Source: Gammaproteobacteria bacterium (GTDB taxonomy: Bacteria > Pseudomonadota > Gammaproteobacteria > Magnimaribacterales > TMED112). Taken from it: DNA of 35,020 nt. This document shows positions 9,213-14,001 of this stretch, piece by piece; the stretch's first letter is position 1; each line of letters opens with the position of its first letter. The DNA is taken from NCBI GenBank assembly GCA_002692425.1, contig NZKB01000017.1:1-35020 (forward strand), written 5' to 3'. The translations under genes and the position numbers were made by a program. The notes under the pieces are model-generated. The model saw nothing but the letters and a program-made list of their open reading frames with translations, was not told the origin of the DNA and ran no database searches.

Positions 9213-10336
9213 TGTTTAAATATTGTATTTCTTTTCTGGTCTGCAATTTTAGTCACTTCTTTAATTAGAGCATTTTCAAGCTCATTAGTTTCAACTTTAT
9301 AGGCTGGCTTCCCGTTCAGATATATAAGATGTTTTGGTGATGCTCCTGTTACACCAACGTCTGCAACCCTAGATTCACCTGGCCCATTAACATAACAGCC
9401 TATTACTGCCAGAGTGACCTCTTCTTTCAAATGAGAAAGATCATTTTCAAGTTTATTAACTGTGTCAATAACTTGAAAATTCTGCCTTGAGCAGCTTGGG
9501 CAGGCGACAATTTTTACACCCCTTGATCGAATTTTCAAGGACTTTAACATTTCCCATGCTACGTTAATTTCATCAACCGGATCAGATGCAAGAGAAACCC
9601 TTATCGTATCGCCAATACCTTGCATCAATAAACTGCCTAATCCAATAGAAGATTTTACAGTTCCTGTCTTTAAGGAACCTGACTCAGTAATACCTAAATG
9701 AAGTGGCTGTTCAATCAATTCTGAAATTTTTTCATAACTTTCAACGGCCATAAAAATATCAGATGATTTGATGCTTAATTTAAAATTTTCATAATTGTTA
9801 TCTAATAGCAGATTCACATGTCTCATGGCTGATTCAACAAGTGCATCTGCGTTAGGTTCTCCATATTTCTTTTGCAAATCTTTTTCTAGAGATCCAGCGT
9901 TTACTCCTATTCTAATTGGAACATCAAGGTCTCGAGCAGCTGAAATTACTTCTTTAATTTTCTTCTCATTGCCAATATTGCCTGGATTTATCCTGACACA
10001 GTCAACACCATATTTAAGAACTTGAAGTGCTATTTTGTAATCAAAGTGGATATCTGATACTAAAGGTATATTTGCTTGTTCTTTAATATGCTTGAATGCC
10101 TCAGCAGCATCCATACTAGGAACAGAAACTCTTACAATGTCTGCTCCTGCTTCTTCTAATTCTTTAATTTGATTTACAGTGGCAGAAATATCTAATGTTT
10201 CAGTATTTGTCATTGATTGAACAGAAATCGGAGTGCCTCCTCCAACCGGGACATCACCTACCCAAATTTTTTTCGTAATTTTTCTTTGAACAGATTGTTT
10301 ATCCAATTTATTAACCAAAAATTTCTGTACTTTCAA
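9209..10336 (-). CDS. ispG: 4-hydroxy-3-methylbut-2-en-1-yl diphosphate synthase (start uncertain; TTG at 10306 avoids the ndk overlap)
   Basis: [35 protein letters not shown]...GCYVNGPGE. Confidence 0.97.
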
Positions 10337-10727
10337 AGAAATATGCTATTTCCCTTTGTGCACTTGCTGGTGAGTCAGAACCATGGACTGCATTTGCATC
10401 AATAGACTCAGCAAAATCTGCTCTTATAGTCCCTGCTTCAGCTTCTTTTGGATTAGTATTACCCATTAATTCTCGATTAAGCTTGATTGCATTCTCTCCT
10501 GCTAATACTTGAACCACTACTGGACCAGATGTCATAAATTCAACTAATGCATTAAAAAATGGCTTACCTTCATGTTCAGCATAGAAACCATGAGCTTTTT
10601 CAACACTCAAATGAATCATTTTCGAAGCCACAATCTTTAATCCAGCATCTTCAAATCTTTGCTTAATTTGTCCTATAACGTTTTTTGCCACCGCATCTGG
10701 CTTAATAATTGATAATGTCATTTCCAT
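10311..10727 (-). CDS. ndk: Nucleoside-diphosphate kinase
   Basis: [25 protein letters not shown] active site. Confidence 0.98.
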
Positions 10728-10728
10728 C

Positions 10729-10926
10729 TTAATCCATCTCCTTTATCCAATTTTGCTGAATAGATTCAAGAATTTTTTCATTTACCTTGTCAGGTTGATC
10801 ATCAAAATCTTCAAGCTCTACAACTAATTTTCGTAAATCAACAAAATTTATCCACTGCGGATCAACATCTGGATGTTTTTCAGATAATTCAATCGCAATA
10901 TCTAGAGTATCAACCCACTTAAGCAT
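10729..10926 (-). CDS. iscX: Fe-S assembly protein IscX
   Basis: LKWVD..DIAIEL...HPDVDP....F.DL...[10 protein letters not shown]; last gene of the isc cluster. Confidence 0.95.
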
Positions 10927-10927
10927 G

Positions 10928-11266
10928 TTATGTTAACTCAGAAACTTGGTTAATAGTATATTTTGGTATTTCAATGACAGTGACGTCATCAACTGGAAAA
11001 ACCTGACAACTTAATCTGGAATTTGATTCTAGGCCCCAAGCCTTATCAAGCATATCCTCCTCTTCATCAGAAGCATAAGCAAGATTATCAAATCCTTCTT
11101 TGACAATTACATGACAAGTTGTACAGGCGCACGCTTTTTCGCAAGCATGTTCAAGATTTATTCCATTCCTCAGACATGCATCTAGAATAGTTTCGTTTTC
11201 TTCAAGCTCTATTGTAAGACCTTCAGGACATATCTCTTCATGAGGCAGAATTTTTAATTTTTTTTT
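10928..11266 (-). CDS. fdx: ISC-type [2Fe-2S] ferredoxin domain with no start codon of its own (probably C-terminal part of an IscA-Fdx fusion)
   Basis: Hand translation: KKKLKILPHEEICPEGLTIELEENETILDACLRNGINLEHACEKACACTTCHVIVKEGF...EEEDMLDKAWGLESNSRLSCQ...EIPKYTINQVSELT*. No ATG/GTG/TTG between the upstream in-frame TAG and the conserved N-terminus. Confidence 0.92.
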   Translation of the reverse strand, partial: KKKLKILPHEEICPEGLTIELEENETILDACLRNGINLEHACEKACACTTCHVIVKEGFDNLAYASDEEEDMLDKAWGLESNSRLSCQVFPVDDVTVIEIPKYTINQVSELT

Positions 11267-11648
11267 TGAGCAGTATTTGTGTTTGAGCTAAATTTTTCGT
11301 CTCTGACAGTAAAACTTTCTCCACAACCACAAACAGCACTAGCATTTGGATTTATAAATTTTACGCCTTGATTTAGACCCTCAATCGTGTAATCAACCTG
11401 GCTTCCTTTAATAATTTCCAAAGAGTCAGATGGTATAAAGAACTCTAAATCATCTATGGTAATTTTATGATCAGATTTATTTGCTCTGCTTGTAAATTCA
11501 AAAAATATGAATAGCCATTACAGCCCATCTTTTTTACACCAAGTTTCACTTTATTCTCTTTTCCTTGCATAGAGATCATATGTTTGAAATGCGCTAATGC
11601 TTTTGTCGTGAAATTTAAAGGCTCAGGTTTATGCTTTTTTGGATTCAT
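11254..11648 (-). CDS. iscA: A-type Fe-S carrier IscA, split by a -1 frameshift at a T6 run (11500-11505)
   Basis: First frame: ...LNFTTKALAHF...KLGVKKMGCNGYSYF. Shifted frame from 11499: EFTSRANKSDHKITIDDLEFFIPSDSLEIIKGSQVDYTIEGLNQGVKFINPNASAVCGCGESFTV...; all three A-type carrier cysteines present. Confidence 0.9.
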
Positions 11649-12024
11649 AATCCGCTATGGCTTTCTTAATGCTATCTTCTGCTAAAACACTACAATGTAT
11701 CTTGATAGATGGTAGTTCTAATATTTCTGCAATTTCTCTATCCTTAATATTTTTGGCTTCTTCCAAAGTTTTTCCGATAAGCATTTCAATCATTTGTTGG
11801 CTTGATGCAATTGCAGATCCACATCCATAAGTTTTGAATTTGCAGTCAGTTATAACTTCTTTGTCATTTACTTCGATTTGAAGCCTCATCACATCGCCAC
11901 ACGCTGGTGCCCCAACCATACCTGTTCCAACATTTTTAGCTTGGGCGTCCATTCTCCCAACATTGTGAGCTTGTGGATTATTTAATGTTTCTTCAAACTT
12001 TTGTATAACTTTTCTAGAGTACAT
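11629..12024 (-). CDS. iscU: Fe-S cluster scaffold IscU
   Basis: GAPACGDVM, FKTYGCGSAIASS, KIHCSVLAED. Confidence 0.96.
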   Translation of the reverse strand: MYSRKVIQKFEETLNNPQAHNVGRMDAQAKNVGTGMVGAPACGDVMRLQIEVNDKEVITDCKFKTYGCGSAIASSQQMIEMLIGKTLEEAKNIKDREIAEILELPSIKIHCSVLAEDSIKKAIADYESKKA

Positions 12025-12030
12025 AATTTA

Positions 12031-13248
12031 TTAGTGGGTTACCCATTCAACTTTTTCAAGATCTACACCATCTTTGAACATATCCCAAAGTGGTGAAAGT
12101 TCTCTTAATTGATGAACAACTCTTTTAGTTGTTTCGGCGACCATTTTAACTTCTTTTTCAGTCGTAAATCTACCAAATGAGAATCTAATTGAACTGTGAG
12201 CTAATTCATCTGCGCGACCCAGTGCTCTTAAAACATATGAAGGTTCTAGGCTTGCAGATGTACATGCAGAACCAGATGAAACAGCCACATCTTTCAGTGC
12301 CATGATCAATGATTCGCCTTCAATGTATGCAAAGCTGATGTTTGTAATATTTGGAATTTTATTCTTAAAGCTACCATTTAGATAGATTTCTTCTATACCC
12401 GAAACTTCCTTCCAGAATAAATCAGCTAATTTTGCGATTTTCTTGTTATCTTTGTCCATTTCATCTGCCGCAATGCGAAATGCTTCGCCCATTCCAACAA
12501 TTTGATGAGTCGGTAATGTACCTGATCTGAAACCTCTTTCATGTCCACCACCATGAATGAGTGCTTCAAGCCTAACTCTAGGTTTTCTACTAACATACAA
12601 GGCTCCAATTCCCTTTGGACCATAAGTTTTGTGCCCAGAAAATGACATTAAGTCTACATCTAGCTTCGATAAATCGATTGGCAATTTTCCAGTGCTTTGT
12701 GCCGCATCAACGTGAAAAATAATATTATTTTCTCTTGTAAATTTACCAATCTCTTCAATATCATTTACTGCACCTAATTCGTTGTTGATGTGCATAATTG
12801 AGATAAGTATTGTTGTGTCTTTTACGTGTTTCTTAATGTTCTCCAGAGAAACTACTCCATTTTCATCTGGGTCTAAATAAGTAATCTCAAAACCCTCTCT
12901 TTCCAGCTGACGACATGGATCTAATACTGCTTTATGTTCAATTTTTGAGGTAATGATGTGGTTGCCTCTATCCTTATAAAATCTTGCCGCACCTTTAATT
13001 GCTAAGTTATCTGATTCGGTTGCACCTGAAGTCCAGACTATTTCTCGAGAATCAGCTTTCACGAGGTTAGCTACGTGGAGTCTGGCCTTTTCGACAGCTT
13101 CATCAGCTTTCCATCCAAATTCATGCGATCTTGATGCAGGATTACCAAAATTGCCGTCCAATAAAAGGCACTCATGCATTTTTTCTGCAACCCTTTGGTC
13201 TACCGGCGTTGTAGACGCATAGTCAAAATATACTAGATTACTTTTCAT
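12031..13248 (-). CDS. iscS: Cysteine desulfurase IscS
   Basis: [19 protein letters not shown] (PLP Lys), SSGSACTS catalytic Cys, SPLWDM C-terminus. Confidence 0.98.
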
Positions 13249-13287: not shown

Positions 13288-14001
13288 TTAAATACTTATT
13301 CCAAGCTTATGGGCTACAATTTGATAAGATTCGACGACATCACCTAAATCTTTTCTAAATCTATCTTTATCAAGGCTTTCGCCTGTTTCTCTATCCCAAA
13401 TCCTACATCCATCAGGTGTGAATTCATCACCAAGAACGATTTGTCCGTCTTTTCTTCCAAACTCTACTTTATAATCCACTAGAATAAGATCAACATCTGA
13501 AAATATCTGACAAAGAAGTTTATTAATAATCAGTGTTTTATCTTTCATGATCGCTATTTCTTCTTCTGAACCCCAATTAAATGCGATTATATGATTATCA
13601 TTTATTAAGGGATCGCCCAAGTCATCATCTTTTAGAAAAAATTCAAAAAGCGGATTTTCAAACTTTAAGCCTTGTTTAACCCCCAATCTTCTACATATTG
13701 AGCCAGTGGCAATATTTCTTACAACACACTCGACTGGCAACATATCAAGCTTGTGAACCAAACTCTCATTATCTGTGACGGTATCAATGTAATGTGTATT
13801 AATCCCATTTTCATCAAGATACTTCATAATGTGAGCATTAAATTTGTTATTAATTTCGCCCTTACCTTTTAAAGCTTCTTTCTTTTTTCCATCAAAGGCT
13901 GACGTATCATCTCGATAGACCATTAAAAGTTCATTTTGATTTTTGGTCTCATACAAGGATTTTGCTTTTCCTTCAGATATTAAGTTTCCTTTTTCAATCA
14001 T
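13288..14001 (-). CDS. purC: SAICAR synthetase
   Basis: EGKAKSLY, ECVVRNIATGS, LVDYKVEFG, DEFTPDGCRIWD, DKDRFR. Confidence 0.98.
   Translation of the reverse strand: MIEKGNLISEGKAKSLYETKNQNELLMVYRDDTSAFDGKKKEALKGKGEINNKFNAHIMKYLDENGINTHYIDTVTDNESLVHKLDMLPVECVVRNIATGSICRRLGVKQGLKFENPLFEFFLKDDDLGDPLINDNHIIAFNWGSEEEIAIMKDKTLIINKLLCQIFSDVDLILVDYKVEFGRKDGQIVLGDEFTPDGCRIWDRETGESLDKDRFRKDLGDVVESYQIVAHKLGISI

What the first reader, a model, noticed from the sequence alone, without database searches (positions are those of the whole stretch)
10928..11648. Apparent IscA-ferredoxin fusion joined through an A10 slippery run
Seen: after CGCGESFTV, IscA continues with a linker-like tail RDEKFSSNTNTAQKKN and stops at ...CAA AAA AAA AAT TAA. 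A complete ISC ferredoxin begins in the -1 frame at that same A10 run (T10 at 11258-11267 on +). It has no ATG/GTG/TTG, and an in-frame TAG lies seven codons before the run. One extra A here, plus one extra T at the upstream T6, gives a 240-aa IscA-linker-Fdx protein. Known: the canonical order is iscA-hscB-hscA-fdx; long A runs promote RNA polymerase slippage, and A_AAA_AAN heptamers support -1 ribosomal frameshifting. Inference: loss of hscBA fused carrier and electron donor. Either the fusion is constitutive (assembly is one A short) or recoding yields both IscA and IscA-Fdx from one gene.
Basis: partly seen in the sequence, partly recalled or inferred. Interest (0 to 1): 0.8.

Follow-up and report, generated by a model that had tools for sequence, protein, structure and literature searches.

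The report
Poly-A recoding site joining IscA and ferredoxin
In this marine SAR86 bacterium the iron-sulfur carrier gene iscA ends in a run of ten A's, and a ferredoxin gene with no start codon follows one base out of frame, a layout kept in many related species that most likely lets the cell make both IscA alone and an IscA-ferredoxin fusion from one gene.

Summary
On the minus strand the window reads iscS-iscU-iscA-fdx-iscX with no hscBA. IscA carries a 16-residue linker-like tail and stops just after an A10 run (T10 at 11258-11267). A complete ISC ferredoxin follows in the -1 frame with no ATG, GTG or TTG.

This is not an assembly slip. Independent DNA contigs and one RNA contig also show A10. 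The same layout (A10 or A9G, -1 offset, no start) occurs in 15 of 22 genus junctions, 8 genomes of a second SAR86 family and 9 metagenome contigs. The start-less fdx is under strong purifying selection (median dN/dS 0.07).

A few close relatives carry one more A and encode an in-frame 239-243 aa IscA-linker-Fdx protein. A sister family fuses the two genes in the opposite order.

The upstream T6 break in iscA is an error or rare variant of this assembly. All four laid runs show T7.

Best reading: programmed recoding at the A run gives IscA and IscA-Fdx. RNA polymerase slippage is favoured, and -1 ribosomal slippage is not excluded. No direct RNA or protein evidence was obtainable.

A second conserved A9/A10 junction (phytase-DedA) exists in the same genus. 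No paper on any of this was found.

The parts
12031..13248 (-). iscS (cysteine desulfurase), first gene of the isc cluster
   Evidence: 405-aa ORF. The name rests on sequence likeness recalled by me and on the operon context. It was not scanned against a family library.
11629..12024 (-). iscU scaffold gene
   Evidence: 131-aa ORF. Relatives of this ORF are named scaffold or NifU-like protein by public sources (cluster 7).
11254..11648 (-). iscA (A-type Fe-S carrier) with its linker tail. It is 131 codons when the T run is read as T7, and it is broken in the window at T6.
   Evidence: PF01521/TIGR00049 matches to both halves. Relatives have intact 129-132 aa ORFs. T7 is seen in 4 of 4 laid runs.
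11500..11505 (-). T6 run (coding strand) that breaks iscA in this assembly. Independent contigs show T7.
   Evidence: (one A put in behind 11499 on the + strand in X1, X2, X12, X17).
11305..11331 (-). CGCGESFTV, the C-terminal cluster-binding motif and normal end of IscA in relatives without the cassette
   Evidence: In 20 of 20 further family-f3 loci IscA stops right after this motif.
11257..11304 (-). Linker-like tail RDEKFSSNTNTAQKKN. It is polar and acidic, variable in sequence, and 13-19 residues long in relatives.
11258..11267 (-). A10 run (T10 on the + strand): the proposed recoding site
   Evidence: A10 is confirmed in DNA and RNA contigs. A runs of 9-11 are conserved in all cassette-bearing relatives.
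11254..11256 (-). TAA stop of the IscA frame, one codon after the run
   Evidence: The codon after KKK is xTA followed by AAA in 33 of 33 cassette sequences, which places a TAA in the IscA frame.
11288..11290 (-). TAG that closes the ferredoxin frame seven codons upstream of the run
10928..11266 (-). ISC-type [2Fe-2S] ferredoxin coding frame (-1 relative to iscA), 112 codons plus stop, with no canonical start codon
   Evidence: TIGR02007, 159.5 bits against 132.1; E. coli Fdx 1i7h; median dN/dS 0.072.
10729..10926 (-). iscX
   Evidence: TIGR03412, 99.3 bits against a cut-off of 40.4.
10311..10727 (-). ndk (nucleoside diphosphate kinase), the downstream neighbour and end of the cluster
   Evidence: ORF. 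The name is recalled from the sequence and was not scanned.

Best explanation
The iscA-fdx junction is a conserved recoding cassette.

Proposed mechanism:
- Ribosomes reading unchanged A10 mRNA make IscA with a short tail and stop at the TAA just after the run.
- A fraction of expression events gains one A-equivalent inside the run. The most likely cause is that RNA polymerase slips on the T10 template and adds an A to the transcript.
- The reading frame then passes from IscA through the linker into the start-less ferredoxin, giving a roughly 240-aa IscA-linker-Fdx protein.
- This is the only route to ferredoxin in this genome. The run length and frame in the DNA set the ratio of free carrier to carrier-donor fusion.

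Proposed function: tethering the ISC ferredoxin to the A-type carrier would feed electrons directly to carrier-bound clusters, for example in reductive coupling of [2Fe-2S] to [4Fe-4S], in an isc system that has lost HscBA.

Shown here: the DNA layout, its conservation, purifying selection on fdx, A10 in independent DNA contigs, natural in-frame variants, the absence of an alternative start, and the absence of a conserved RNA structure.

Inferred: that recoding happens, that it happens at the RNA polymerase step, and what the fusion does.

My odds: recoding of some kind at the run 0.8. Within that, about 0.5 transcriptional, 0.3 ribosomal or both.
For: 1. Real A10. An 892-base DNA contig (runs X1 and X2, depth 12.6) matches the window across the run with no gap there, yet corrects T6 to T7 in the same contig. 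An RNA contig (X12, 11247-11385, depth 7.9) also shows A10.

2. Conservation.
- In the genus, 15 of 22 complete junctions have A10 or A9G, a -1 offset, no canonical start, and TAA right after the run.
- 9 of 12 close metagenome loci show the same layout.
- 8 genomes of family f3 show the same layout.
- The out-of-frame IscA forms are on record from many contigs (491, 190, 210 and 62), against 14-16 contigs for the matching in-frame forms.

3. The shift window is confined to the run. In G019, G021 and L172 a TGA closes the fdx frame directly before the run, and the IscA TAA follows one codon after it.

4. fdx is functional. The median dN/dS is 0.072 over the 126 pairs with 0.2<dS<3, out of 171 pairs among 19 start-less sequences. 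The median dS is 1.6. There is a single ISC-type fdx match per genus genome.

5. The fused product exists in nature. In-frame 239-243 aa IscA-linker-Fdx ORFs differ from out-of-frame relatives by one A: L179 has A10G against A9G, and G123 and G127 have A11 against A10 in G133, G132 and G126 with near-identical linkers. P0126 and P0180 are the exact one-A-longer products of the G024 and G008 types. The P0001 lineage is in frame on at least 81 contigs.

6. All or nothing. Linker, run and loss of ATG always occur together. 20 of 20 further f3 loci and 15 others have no linker, no run and an ATG.

7. Run codons are frozen while synonymous sites are saturated. K1, K2 and K5 are AAA in 33 of 33 sequences, against a background AAA share of 0.77. 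Three of 4 other conserved Lys columns are mixed.

8. Points favouring RNA polymerase slippage.
- Every cassette has at least 9 A's, the length at which bacterial RNA polymerase slips efficiently (Atkins et al. 2016, PMC5009743, passages read).
- No conserved RNA structure is present (consensus energy -0.3 kcal/mol, 0 covarying pairs; window fold z-score 0.07).
- All three frame relations occur among relatives that keep the run: -1, in frame, and +1 in G018, G001 and G045.
- Rare database members have longer runs (KKKKK in P0189; P0107).

9. Functional coupling. A sister family encodes an in-frame Fdx-linker-IscA in 36 of 50 genomes.

10. A second junction with the same architecture (phytase-DedA; A9 or A10, -1 offset in 23 of 24 genus genomes) shows that the device recurs in this genus.
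Against: - No direct evidence of A11 transcripts or of the fusion protein in this organism. Only assembled contigs could be laid. These drop minority variants, and the one RNA contig across the run shows A10.
- The two DNA runs may be one data set, or the window's own source.
- 28 A9/T9 runs lie in this genome, mostly inside ordinary ORFs in frame. Slippage at 9 A's is therefore either tolerated or not very efficient here.
- A_AAA_AAA in the IscA frame is also a valid -1 ribosomal slip site, and long A tracts can make ribosomes slide (that last point is recalled, not read). The level at which the frame changes is therefore open.
- Types with a +1 offset could be explained without RNA slippage: type C has an ATG two codons before the run, and G018 is a 64%-complete, 70-contig genome.
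- The in-frame contigs (2-10% in two clusters) could be DNA polymorphism.
- The functional rationale rests on work in other systems.
Confidence: 0.75

Rival explanations
1. The frame change is made by the ribosome, not by RNA polymerase. This would be -1 programmed frameshifting, or sliding, of tRNA-Lys on A_AAA_AAA in A10 mRNA, helped by the stop codon just downstream. It gives the same two products.
For: - The IscA frame presents a perfect X_XXY_YYZ heptamer in every -1 type.
- The offset is -1 in 23 of the species genomes for isc and in 23 of 24 for the DedA site.
- The IscA-frame TAA lies 0-1 codons after the run in all of them.
- A tRNA-Lys(UUU) is present.
- The majority RNA form is A10.
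- E. coli dnaX uses A_AAA_AAG (PMC5009743, passage).
Against: - There is no conserved downstream hairpin or pseudoknot, and none of the upstream sequences printed shows a Shine-Dalgarno-like element (checked by eye only).
- The run is always 9-11 A's, though 7 would do.
- The classical AAG-ending heptamer is not in phase.
- Relatives with in-frame or +1 relations keep the run.
- Whether a second tRNA-Lys exists is unknown, because only 13 tRNAs are present in this 60%-complete genome.
Confidence: 0.3
2. The true sequence is A11 and the fusion is simply constitutive. On this view A10 is a homopolymer error of sequencing or assembly.
For: - This assembly does contain a homopolymer error 240 bases away (T6 for T7).
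- Some close relatives are in frame with A11.
- In-frame forms are on record in the same 90% clusters.
Against: - Independent contigs corrected the T6 but kept A10.
- The -1 state is seen in 23 species genomes, 9 metagenome contigs and hundreds of database contigs, against a few tens in frame.
- A lineage that is in frame (the P0001 type, A10G) is assembled consistently in frame on at least 81 contigs, so assemblers do resolve runs of this length.
Confidence: 0.03
3. Ferredoxin is translated on its own, either from a non-canonical start (ATT, ATA, CTG or TTG near KILPH) or by re-initiation after the IscA stop. On this view no fusion protein is made.
For: - Gene callers in public records do call N-terminally shortened ferredoxins of 69-106 aa here.
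- A TTG sits at the L of LPH in 7 of 16 start-less genus junctions.
- The IscA stop lies within a few bases of these codons.
Against: - No candidate codon is conserved. The L codon is CTG, TTA, TTG or CTT, and the I codon is ATT 18, ATA 13, ATC 1, GTA 1.
- The residues K-[LI]-K-I before LPH are conserved in the fdx frame, and they align to K3-I4-V5-I6 of E. coli Fdx. A start at LPH would remove them.
- This does not explain the linker, the frozen run, or the natural in-frame fusions.
- The A-rich upstream sequence shows no Shine-Dalgarno motif (checked by eye).
Confidence: 0.08
4. This is DNA-level phase variation. The run flips between A10 and A11 by replication slippage, cells with A11 make the fusion and cells with A10 make no ferredoxin, and no recoding occurs.
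For: - Close relatives differ by one A.
- Both lengths occur in the same 90% protein clusters.
Against: - The majority genotype would then lack the only ISC ferredoxin (one match per genome). Yet fdx shows dN/dS 0.07 in lineages where A10 is the consensus.
- A10 is the consensus in species after species.
Confidence: 0.05
5. The fdx gene is a decaying pseudogene left after a frameshift.
For: It has no start codon and is out of frame with iscA.
Against: - The 112-codon frame is open in all relatives, the median dN/dS is 0.072 at dS of about 1.6, and no stop occurs in any of 19 sequences.
- It scores above the equivalog cut-off.
Confidence: 0.01

Closest known systems
Citrobacter rodentium tssM1 (and Yersinia pseudotuberculosis tssM): transcriptional frameshifting at a poly-A tract (Gueguen et al. 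2014, PMC4256274; abstract read)
   Same: A run of about 10-11 A's sits directly before the stop codon of a shortened ORF. Added A's in the transcript extend the protein into the downstream-frame domain. Two length variants come from one gene, and in tssM1 both variants and their ratio matter.
   Different: In tssM1 one protein's own C-terminal domain is restored. Here two ancestrally separate genes (carrier and ferredoxin) are joined, the locus is a core housekeeping operon of a free-living plankton bacterium, and slippage has not been shown experimentally.
dnaX tau/gamma: A9 transcriptional slippage in Thermus thermophilus and A_AAA_AAG -1 ribosomal frameshifting in E. coli (Atkins et al. 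2016 review, PMC5009743; passages read)
   Same: An A-rich slip site gives two products in a set ratio, with stops close by in the alternative frames. The same outcome is reached by either RNA polymerase or the ribosome, which is exactly the ambiguity here.
   Different: In dnaX the long product is the zero-frame one and slippage truncates it. Here the long product needs the shift in most species, and the reverse holds in the few in-frame species. No stimulatory structure was found here.
Rescue of frameshifted genes at poly(A) tracts in the endosymbionts Buchnera and Blochmannia (cited in PMC5009743, passage read; the primary paper was not read)
   Same: AT-rich small genomes, frameshifts sitting in long A tracts, and expression presumed to pass through RNA polymerase infidelity.
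   Different: Those cases are read as tolerated damage under drift. Here the out-of-frame state is conserved across species whose synonymous sites are saturated, comes with a dedicated linker and an adjacent stop, and occurs in a free-living lineage.
Electron flow from ferredoxin to A-type carriers: FDX2 to ISCA1-ISCA2 reductive [2Fe-2S] fusion (Weiler et al. 2020, title seen in the reference list of PMC9313013; a passage of that review was read) and the E. coli IscA-ferredoxin complex (Ollagnier-de-Choudens et al. 2001, title seen in the reference list of PMC2682760)
   Same: The same two protein families are functionally paired. A covalent fusion is what such a partnership would predict.
   Different: Those are separate proteins that meet transiently. 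No fused form is described in the passages I read, and no biochemistry exists for the SAR86 protein.
In-frame Fdx-linker-IscA proteins of a sister SAR86 family (f4; 242-245 aa)
   Same: The same two domains, the same position in the operon (between iscU and iscX), and the same hscBA-less isc cluster.
   Different: The domain order is reversed, the fusion is plain and in frame, and there is no A run or frameshift. It is an independent fusion event.
NfuA (A-type carrier domain fused to Nfu) as a known fused A-type carrier (Vinella et al. 2009, PMC2682760; passage read)
   Same: A PF01521 domain is covalently joined to another Fe-S biogenesis module.
   Different: The partner domain is different, and no recoding is involved. 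The 'other' architectures in that paper's Table S1 could not be seen because supplements are closed.

Membership tests
ISC-system [2Fe-2S] ferredoxin (Fdx; NCBIfam TIGR02007) | Scores above the curated equivalog cut-off over the full model | tested here: met
   159.5 bits against a cut-off of 132.1, model positions 2-109 of 110. Pfam Fer2 54.2 bits against 21.
ISC-system [2Fe-2S] ferredoxin (Fdx; NCBIfam TIGR02007) | The cluster-binding cysteines and the fold-defining N-terminal strand are present | tested here: met
   The natural fusion P0126 aligns to E. coli Fdx 1i7h residues 3-109 at E 1.3e-44, with the C-x5-C-x2-C and later C conserved. These cysteines are invariant in 18 fusion proteins. 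Which cysteines are ligands is recalled, not tested.
ISC-system [2Fe-2S] ferredoxin (Fdx; NCBIfam TIGR02007) | Sits in an isc operon next to iscX | tested here: met
   iscS-iscU-iscA-fdx-iscX.
ISC-system [2Fe-2S] ferredoxin (Fdx; NCBIfam TIGR02007) | Is an independent gene with its own start codon | tested here: not met
   No ATG, GTG or TTG lies between the upstream TAG and LPH. The same holds in 15 of 22 genus junctions.
A-type Fe-S carrier (IscA/SufA/ErpA; Pfam PF01521, NCBIfam TIGR00049) | Matches the family model above its cut-off | tested here: inconclusive
   In the window the gene is split by the T6 error. The C-terminal piece scores 58.0 against 58.8 (TIGR00049) and 23.7 against 26.3 (Pfam), and the N-terminal piece 30.4. 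The intact relative P0001 scores 95 against 58.8 and Pfam 51.1 against 26.3. The stricter IscA equivalog TIGR02011 (cut-off 150.6) is not reached (95.4).
A-type Fe-S carrier (IscA/SufA/ErpA; Pfam PF01521, NCBIfam TIGR00049) | Three conserved cysteines (C...CGC) | tested here: met
   GCNG and CGCGESF are present in the window. C43, C107 and C109 are invariant in 18 fusion proteins.
Programmed transcriptional slippage site | A homopolymeric A or T run of about 9 or more in the coding region | tested here: met
   A10 here, and A9-A11 in all 33 cassette sequences compared. The threshold is taken from PMC5009743.
Programmed transcriptional slippage site | Run and frame arrangement conserved across species, with both frames under selection | tested here: met
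Programmed transcriptional slippage site | Transcripts carry extra A's that are absent from the DNA | tested here: inconclusive
   Only contigs could be laid. The X12 RNA contig shows A10, and its contigs break 11-14 bases downstream of the run where the DNA contig runs on. Minority forms cannot be seen in contigs.
-1 programmed ribosomal frameshift site | A slippery heptamer X_XXY_YYZ in the zero frame | tested here: met
   A_AAA_AAA in the IscA frame.
-1 programmed ribosomal frameshift site | A conserved downstream RNA structure or an upstream Shine-Dalgarno-like stimulator | tested here: not met
   RNAalifold on 18 sequences gave 2 invariant pairs, -0.3 kcal/mol and no covariation. The window fold has z-score 0.07. 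The Shine-Dalgarno element was checked by eye only.
Canonical isc operon (iscRSUA-hscBA-fdx-iscX) | hscB and hscA lie between iscA and fdx | tested here: not met
   iscA abuts fdx. hscB (TIGR00714) was over its cut-off in 0 of 5 near-complete genomes of the order, while the E. coli control passed. hscA was not searched separately.

The most novel reading that the evidence does not exclude
SAR86 bacteria use long A runs as a deliberate, heritable device to couple and dose proteins.

At two or more conserved loci (IscA/Fdx and phytase/DedA), a start-less downstream gene is expressed only as a slippage-dependent extension of the upstream protein. The run length in the DNA tunes the ratio of the two products.

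The IscA-Fdx fusion, together with the independent Fdx-IscA fusion in a sister family, would be natural 'Rosetta stone' evidence. It would indicate that the bacterial ISC ferredoxin delivers electrons to the A-type carrier for [4Fe-4S] formation. It may also help explain how an isc system works without the HscBA chaperones.
Probability: 0.4. Interest if true: 0.8.

Novelty: new member of a known kind. Interest (0 to 1): 0.72.

Why it matters
- Cellular recoding cases in bacteria outside mobile elements and phages are few (dnaX, tssM and some type III secretion genes are named in the review passages read). This would add one in a core housekeeping pathway of one of the most abundant groups of ocean bacteria, conserved over saturated synonymous divergence, with a second site of the same design in the same genus.
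- Public records seen here annotate this ferredoxin as N-terminally shortened proteins of 69-106 aa. The true product is therefore probably missed in SAR86 genome and metaproteome work.
- The fusion occurs in both domain orders, which is independent comparative support for a direct ferredoxin to A-type carrier partnership in bacteria. It also offers a ready-made, covalently tethered pair for biochemistry.
- In-frame and out-of-frame species differ by a single A. They form a natural series for asking how the ratio of carrier to carrier-donor is set.

Tried and rejected
- Structure prediction of the natural in-frame fusion P0126 from an 18-sequence alignment gave mean pLDDT 54.6 and pTM 0.47. 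The ferredoxin half scored below 50, so the model is unusable, and no fold search was run on it.
- The RNA-structure search around the run found nothing conserved.
- Read laying could use only Logan contigs. They cannot show minority A11 transcripts, transcript ends or expression levels. Run X17 does not cover 11059-11280 at all, and nothing is concluded from that hole. The break of the X12 RNA contigs at 11244/11247 is noted only as a weak hint.
- tRNA-Lys repertoire: only tRNA-Lys(UUU) was found, but just 13 tRNAs are present in this 60%-complete genome, so nothing follows from it.
- The genome-contig scan with the whole ferredoxin was swamped by generic gammaproteobacterial ferredoxins, and only 4 genus loci were among the 80 returned.
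- The metagenome scan gave 12 close loci out of 80.
- Direction of evolution is unresolved. The careful IscA+Fdx tree puts the ATG-bearing type B at the base of the genus (support 88/47). The quick trees that include the f3 cassette loci join f1 and the f3 cassettes (Fdx SH-aLRT 98, IscA 89), which would make type B a reversion. I do not claim either.
- Complex prediction was not used. The claim is a covalent fusion, not a non-covalent interaction.
- Literature. No paper was found that links SAR86 with frameshifting at this locus (16 papers, none relevant by title or abstract), that holds both 'SAR86' and 'transcriptional slippage' (0 papers), that holds both 'transcriptional slippage' and 'IscA' in a relevant way (2 papers, both unrelated), or that describes an IscA-ferredoxin fusion (listings only; PMC2682760 passages). 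Table S1 of PMC2682760, which lists 'other' PF01521 architectures, could not be seen because supplements are closed, so an earlier tabulated mention of such a fusion cannot be excluded.
Full report
**What is there.** The window is a whole 35-kb contig of a 663-kb, 29-contig, 34% G+C genome that is 60% complete. Record titles of close relatives name the SAR86 cluster of marine Gammaproteobacteria. On the minus strand lie iscS, iscU, iscA, a ferredoxin frame, iscX and ndk, tightly packed and without hscB or hscA.

IscA ends with the usual CGCGESFTV and then continues with a polar 16-residue tail, RDEKFSSNTNTAQKKN. It stops at a TAA one codon after an A10 run (T10 at 11258-11267 on the + strand). 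From inside that run, one base back, an open frame encodes a full ISC-type [2Fe-2S] ferredoxin. It scores 159.5 bits against the TIGR02007 cut-off of 132.1 and matches model positions 2-109 of 110. It aligns to E. coli Fdx from its third residue. This frame has no ATG, GTG or TTG and is closed by a TAG seven codons before the run.

**The upstream T6.** iscA is also broken at a T6 run (window 11500-11505). All other IscA genes of the genus are intact at this place and read ...YSYFFEFT.... Contigs of all four public runs laid on the window (two DNA, two metatranscriptome) carry one more base there. So T6 is an assembly error or a rare variant, IscA is intact, and this break has nothing to do with recoding.

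**The A10 is real.** The same 892-base DNA contig that corrects the T6 agrees with the window across the A10 run. Its only gap is at the T6 site (runs X1 and X2, depth 12.6). An RNA contig of a third, independent study (X12, 11247-11385, depth 7.9) also has A10. One caveat applies: X1 and X2 gave nearly identical contig sets. They may be one data set, or the source of the window.

A stronger argument comes from relatives. In the protein collection, the IscA ORFs that end at the post-run TAA are on record from 491, 190, 210 and 62 contigs for four species-level types. The matching in-frame fusions are on record from 14 and 16 contigs. Only 15 of up to 40 read members per cluster are listed, so these are partial counts.

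**Conservation in the genus.** The genus, which is also the whole family f1, holds 30 species genomes. Of these, 22 have a complete iscA-fdx junction, one (G011) is cut by a contig end, and seven incomplete genomes lack the locus. The 22 junctions divide as follows.
- Window layout (A10 or A9G, ferredoxin in the -1 frame, no canonical start, TAA directly after the run): 15.
- A9 run with a +1 offset: 1 (G018).
- Linker, A10G run, an ATG two codons before the run and a +1 offset: 2.
- No linker, no run and an ordinary ATG start: 4.

Of 12 close metagenome loci, nine have the window layout, two have the ATG-plus-run type, and one (L179, on a 64-kb contig) is an in-frame IscA-linker-Fdx with A10G. 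That is one A more than the A9G type.

**Conservation in the order.** An order-wide search of 266 genomes found the same cassette in a second family, f3. Eight genomes have A10, a -1 offset and no start. Three are in frame: two with A11 and one with A10 after a different preceding codon. G127 (A11, in frame) has almost the same linker as G132 and G126 (A10, out of frame). The same holds for G123 against G133. All 35 other f3 loci inspected end IscA right after CGCGESF and start ferredoxin with ATG (15, 20). Linker, run and loss of the start codon therefore come as one package.

**The ferredoxin is a working gene.**
- Among 19 start-less sequences the median dN/dS is 0.072, over the 126 of 171 pairs with 0.2<dS<3, at a median dS of 1.6. 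For the last 60 codons of IscA it is 0.078. No sequence has a stop.
- Genus genomes have a single ISC-type ferredoxin match.
- The residues K-[L/I]-K-I before LPH are conserved in the ferredoxin frame and correspond to the first strand of E. coli Fdx.
- The candidate non-canonical starts are not conserved. The L codon is CTG, TTA, TTG or CTT, and the I codon is ATT, ATA, ATC or GTA.
- In three lineages a TGA closes the ferredoxin frame immediately before the run, and the IscA TAA follows one codon after it. The change of frame must therefore occur within the run itself.

**The run itself is constrained.** Synonymous sites are saturated, yet the first two Lys codons and the Lys after L/I are AAA in 33 of 33 cassette sequences. 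The third Lys is AAA in 26 and AAG in 7. The background share of AAA is 0.77, and three of four other conserved Lys columns are mixed. The codon after KKK is always xTA followed by AAA, which places a TAA in the IscA frame.

**Mechanism.** Two known mechanisms fit.
- RNA polymerase slippage. Bacterial RNA polymerase slips efficiently on runs of nine or more A or T and adds A's to the transcript. Examples are Thermus dnaX and several Shigella secretion genes (Atkins et al. 2016, passages), and Citrobacter tssM1, where an A11 run precedes the stop and both length variants are needed (abstract).
- Ribosomal -1 slippage. A_AAA_AAA in the IscA frame is also a legitimate -1 ribosomal slip site.

I favour the polymerase for four reasons.
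- Every cassette keeps at least nine A's, although seven would serve a ribosome.
- No conserved RNA structure or covariation flanks the run.
- Relatives with all three frame relations retain the run.
- Rare database members have much longer Lys runs, as multi-A addition would give. Their source type is unknown.

Against this stand two observations. The majority RNA contig shows A10. And 28 A9/T9 runs lie in this genome, mostly inside ordinary genes. I could not measure run lengths in raw RNA reads, so the step at which the frame changes remains inferred.

**Why fuse these two proteins.** iscA abuts fdx throughout the order. hscB was not found above its cut-off in 0 of 5 near-complete genomes, while the E. 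coli control passed. In a sister family, f4, 36 of 50 genomes encode an in-frame Fdx-linker-IscA of 242-245 aa between iscU and iscX. That is the reverse domain order. Two independent fusions argue for a direct functional partnership.

This agrees with published work I saw only as titles or short passages. One is a specific IscA-ferredoxin complex in E. coli (Ollagnier-de-Choudens 2001, reference list of PMC2682760). The other is reductive [2Fe-2S] fusion on ISCA1-ISCA2 driven by FDX2 (Weiler 2020, reference list of PMC9313013). That the SAR86 fusion works this way is inference.

**Origins.** In quick gene trees the f3 cassette loci group with the f1 loci (Fdx SH-aLRT 98; IscA 89), apart from the separate-gene loci of the same f3 genus codes. 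The IscA-to-Fdx cassette therefore probably arose once and was then inherited or transferred. The careful tree without the f3 cassette loci placed the ATG-bearing type at the base of the genus, with weak support (88/47). Whether that type is ancestral or a reversion is open.

**A second site.** A scan of all 1062 A runs of seven or more in this genome found 18 at junctions of two long ORFs in different frames. The 16 junctions with A7-A8 all have a canonical start for the downstream ORF. The two with runs of nine or more do not. One is IscA/Fdx.

The other is at G000:C1:20729-20737. There a beta-propeller phytase ORF (PF02333) is followed in the -1 frame by a start-less DedA/VTT protein (PF09335). 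In 23 of the 24 genus genomes that hold this gene, the offset is -1 with A9 (14 genomes) or A10 (9 genomes), and 22 of those 23 have no canonical start. In seven genomes the downstream frame opens inside the run. One genome (G024) has A10 in frame and a 548-aa fusion. The device is therefore recurrent in this genus.

**Novelty and verdict.** Recoding at poly-A runs is a known kind of system. This is a new, conserved member in a core Fe-S pathway of an abundant ocean lineage, and it joins two ancestrally separate genes. My literature searches found nothing on it. Public records annotate the ferredoxin as truncated proteins.

I put recoding at the run at about 0.8. Within that, transcriptional slippage is about 0.5 and ribosomal slippage about 0.3. 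Assembly error, independent initiation, phase variation and pseudogene are each below 0.1.

Noticed in passing
G000:C1:20729-20737 (another contig of the same genome; locus L277:1493-1501): A second A-run junction of the same design. A 383-aa beta-propeller phytase ORF (PF02333) ends 8 codons after an A9 run, and a start-less DedA/VTT-domain ORF (PF09335) follows in the -1 frame. It is conserved in 23 of 24 genus genomes (A9 or A10, -1 offset). G024 has A10 in frame, giving a 548-aa fusion.
   Followed up: partly
G000:C10:8042-8051 (another contig): The only other run of 10 in the genome. It lies where coaE ends (...YEKKN, then stop) and a yacG-like zinc-finger gene begins with ATG followed by three AAA codons. 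This is a normal overlapping gene pair with a proper start, but the local sequence (A10 then TTAA) is almost the same as at the iscA end. The gene names are recalled from the sequence and were not scanned.
   Followed up: partly
window 11500-11505: A homopolymer error in this assembly: T6 where four independent contig sets have T7. Other apparent frameshifts at short runs in this genome should be treated with the same suspicion.
   Followed up: yes
loci of family f4, e.g. L027:1492-2226, L028:1492-2220: In-frame Fdx-linker-IscA proteins of 242-245 aa between iscU and iscX, found in 36 of 50 genomes of a sister SAR86 family. Genus g9 of that family (9 of 9 genomes) has ferredoxin alone at that place.
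   Followed up: partly
protein clusters (P0120-P0122, P0134, P0179, P0221): Public gene calls for this ferredoxin are N-terminally shortened proteins of 69-106 aa that start at internal codons. Some are named 'ISC system 2Fe-2S type ferredoxin'. Rare members carry longer Lys runs at the junction (P0189 with KKKKK; P0107).
   Followed up: partly
window 13288-14001: The ORF directly upstream of iscS looks like purC (SAICAR synthetase), not iscR, so the cluster seems to lack the usual regulator gene at this position. The name is recalled from the translation and was not scanned.
   Followed up: no
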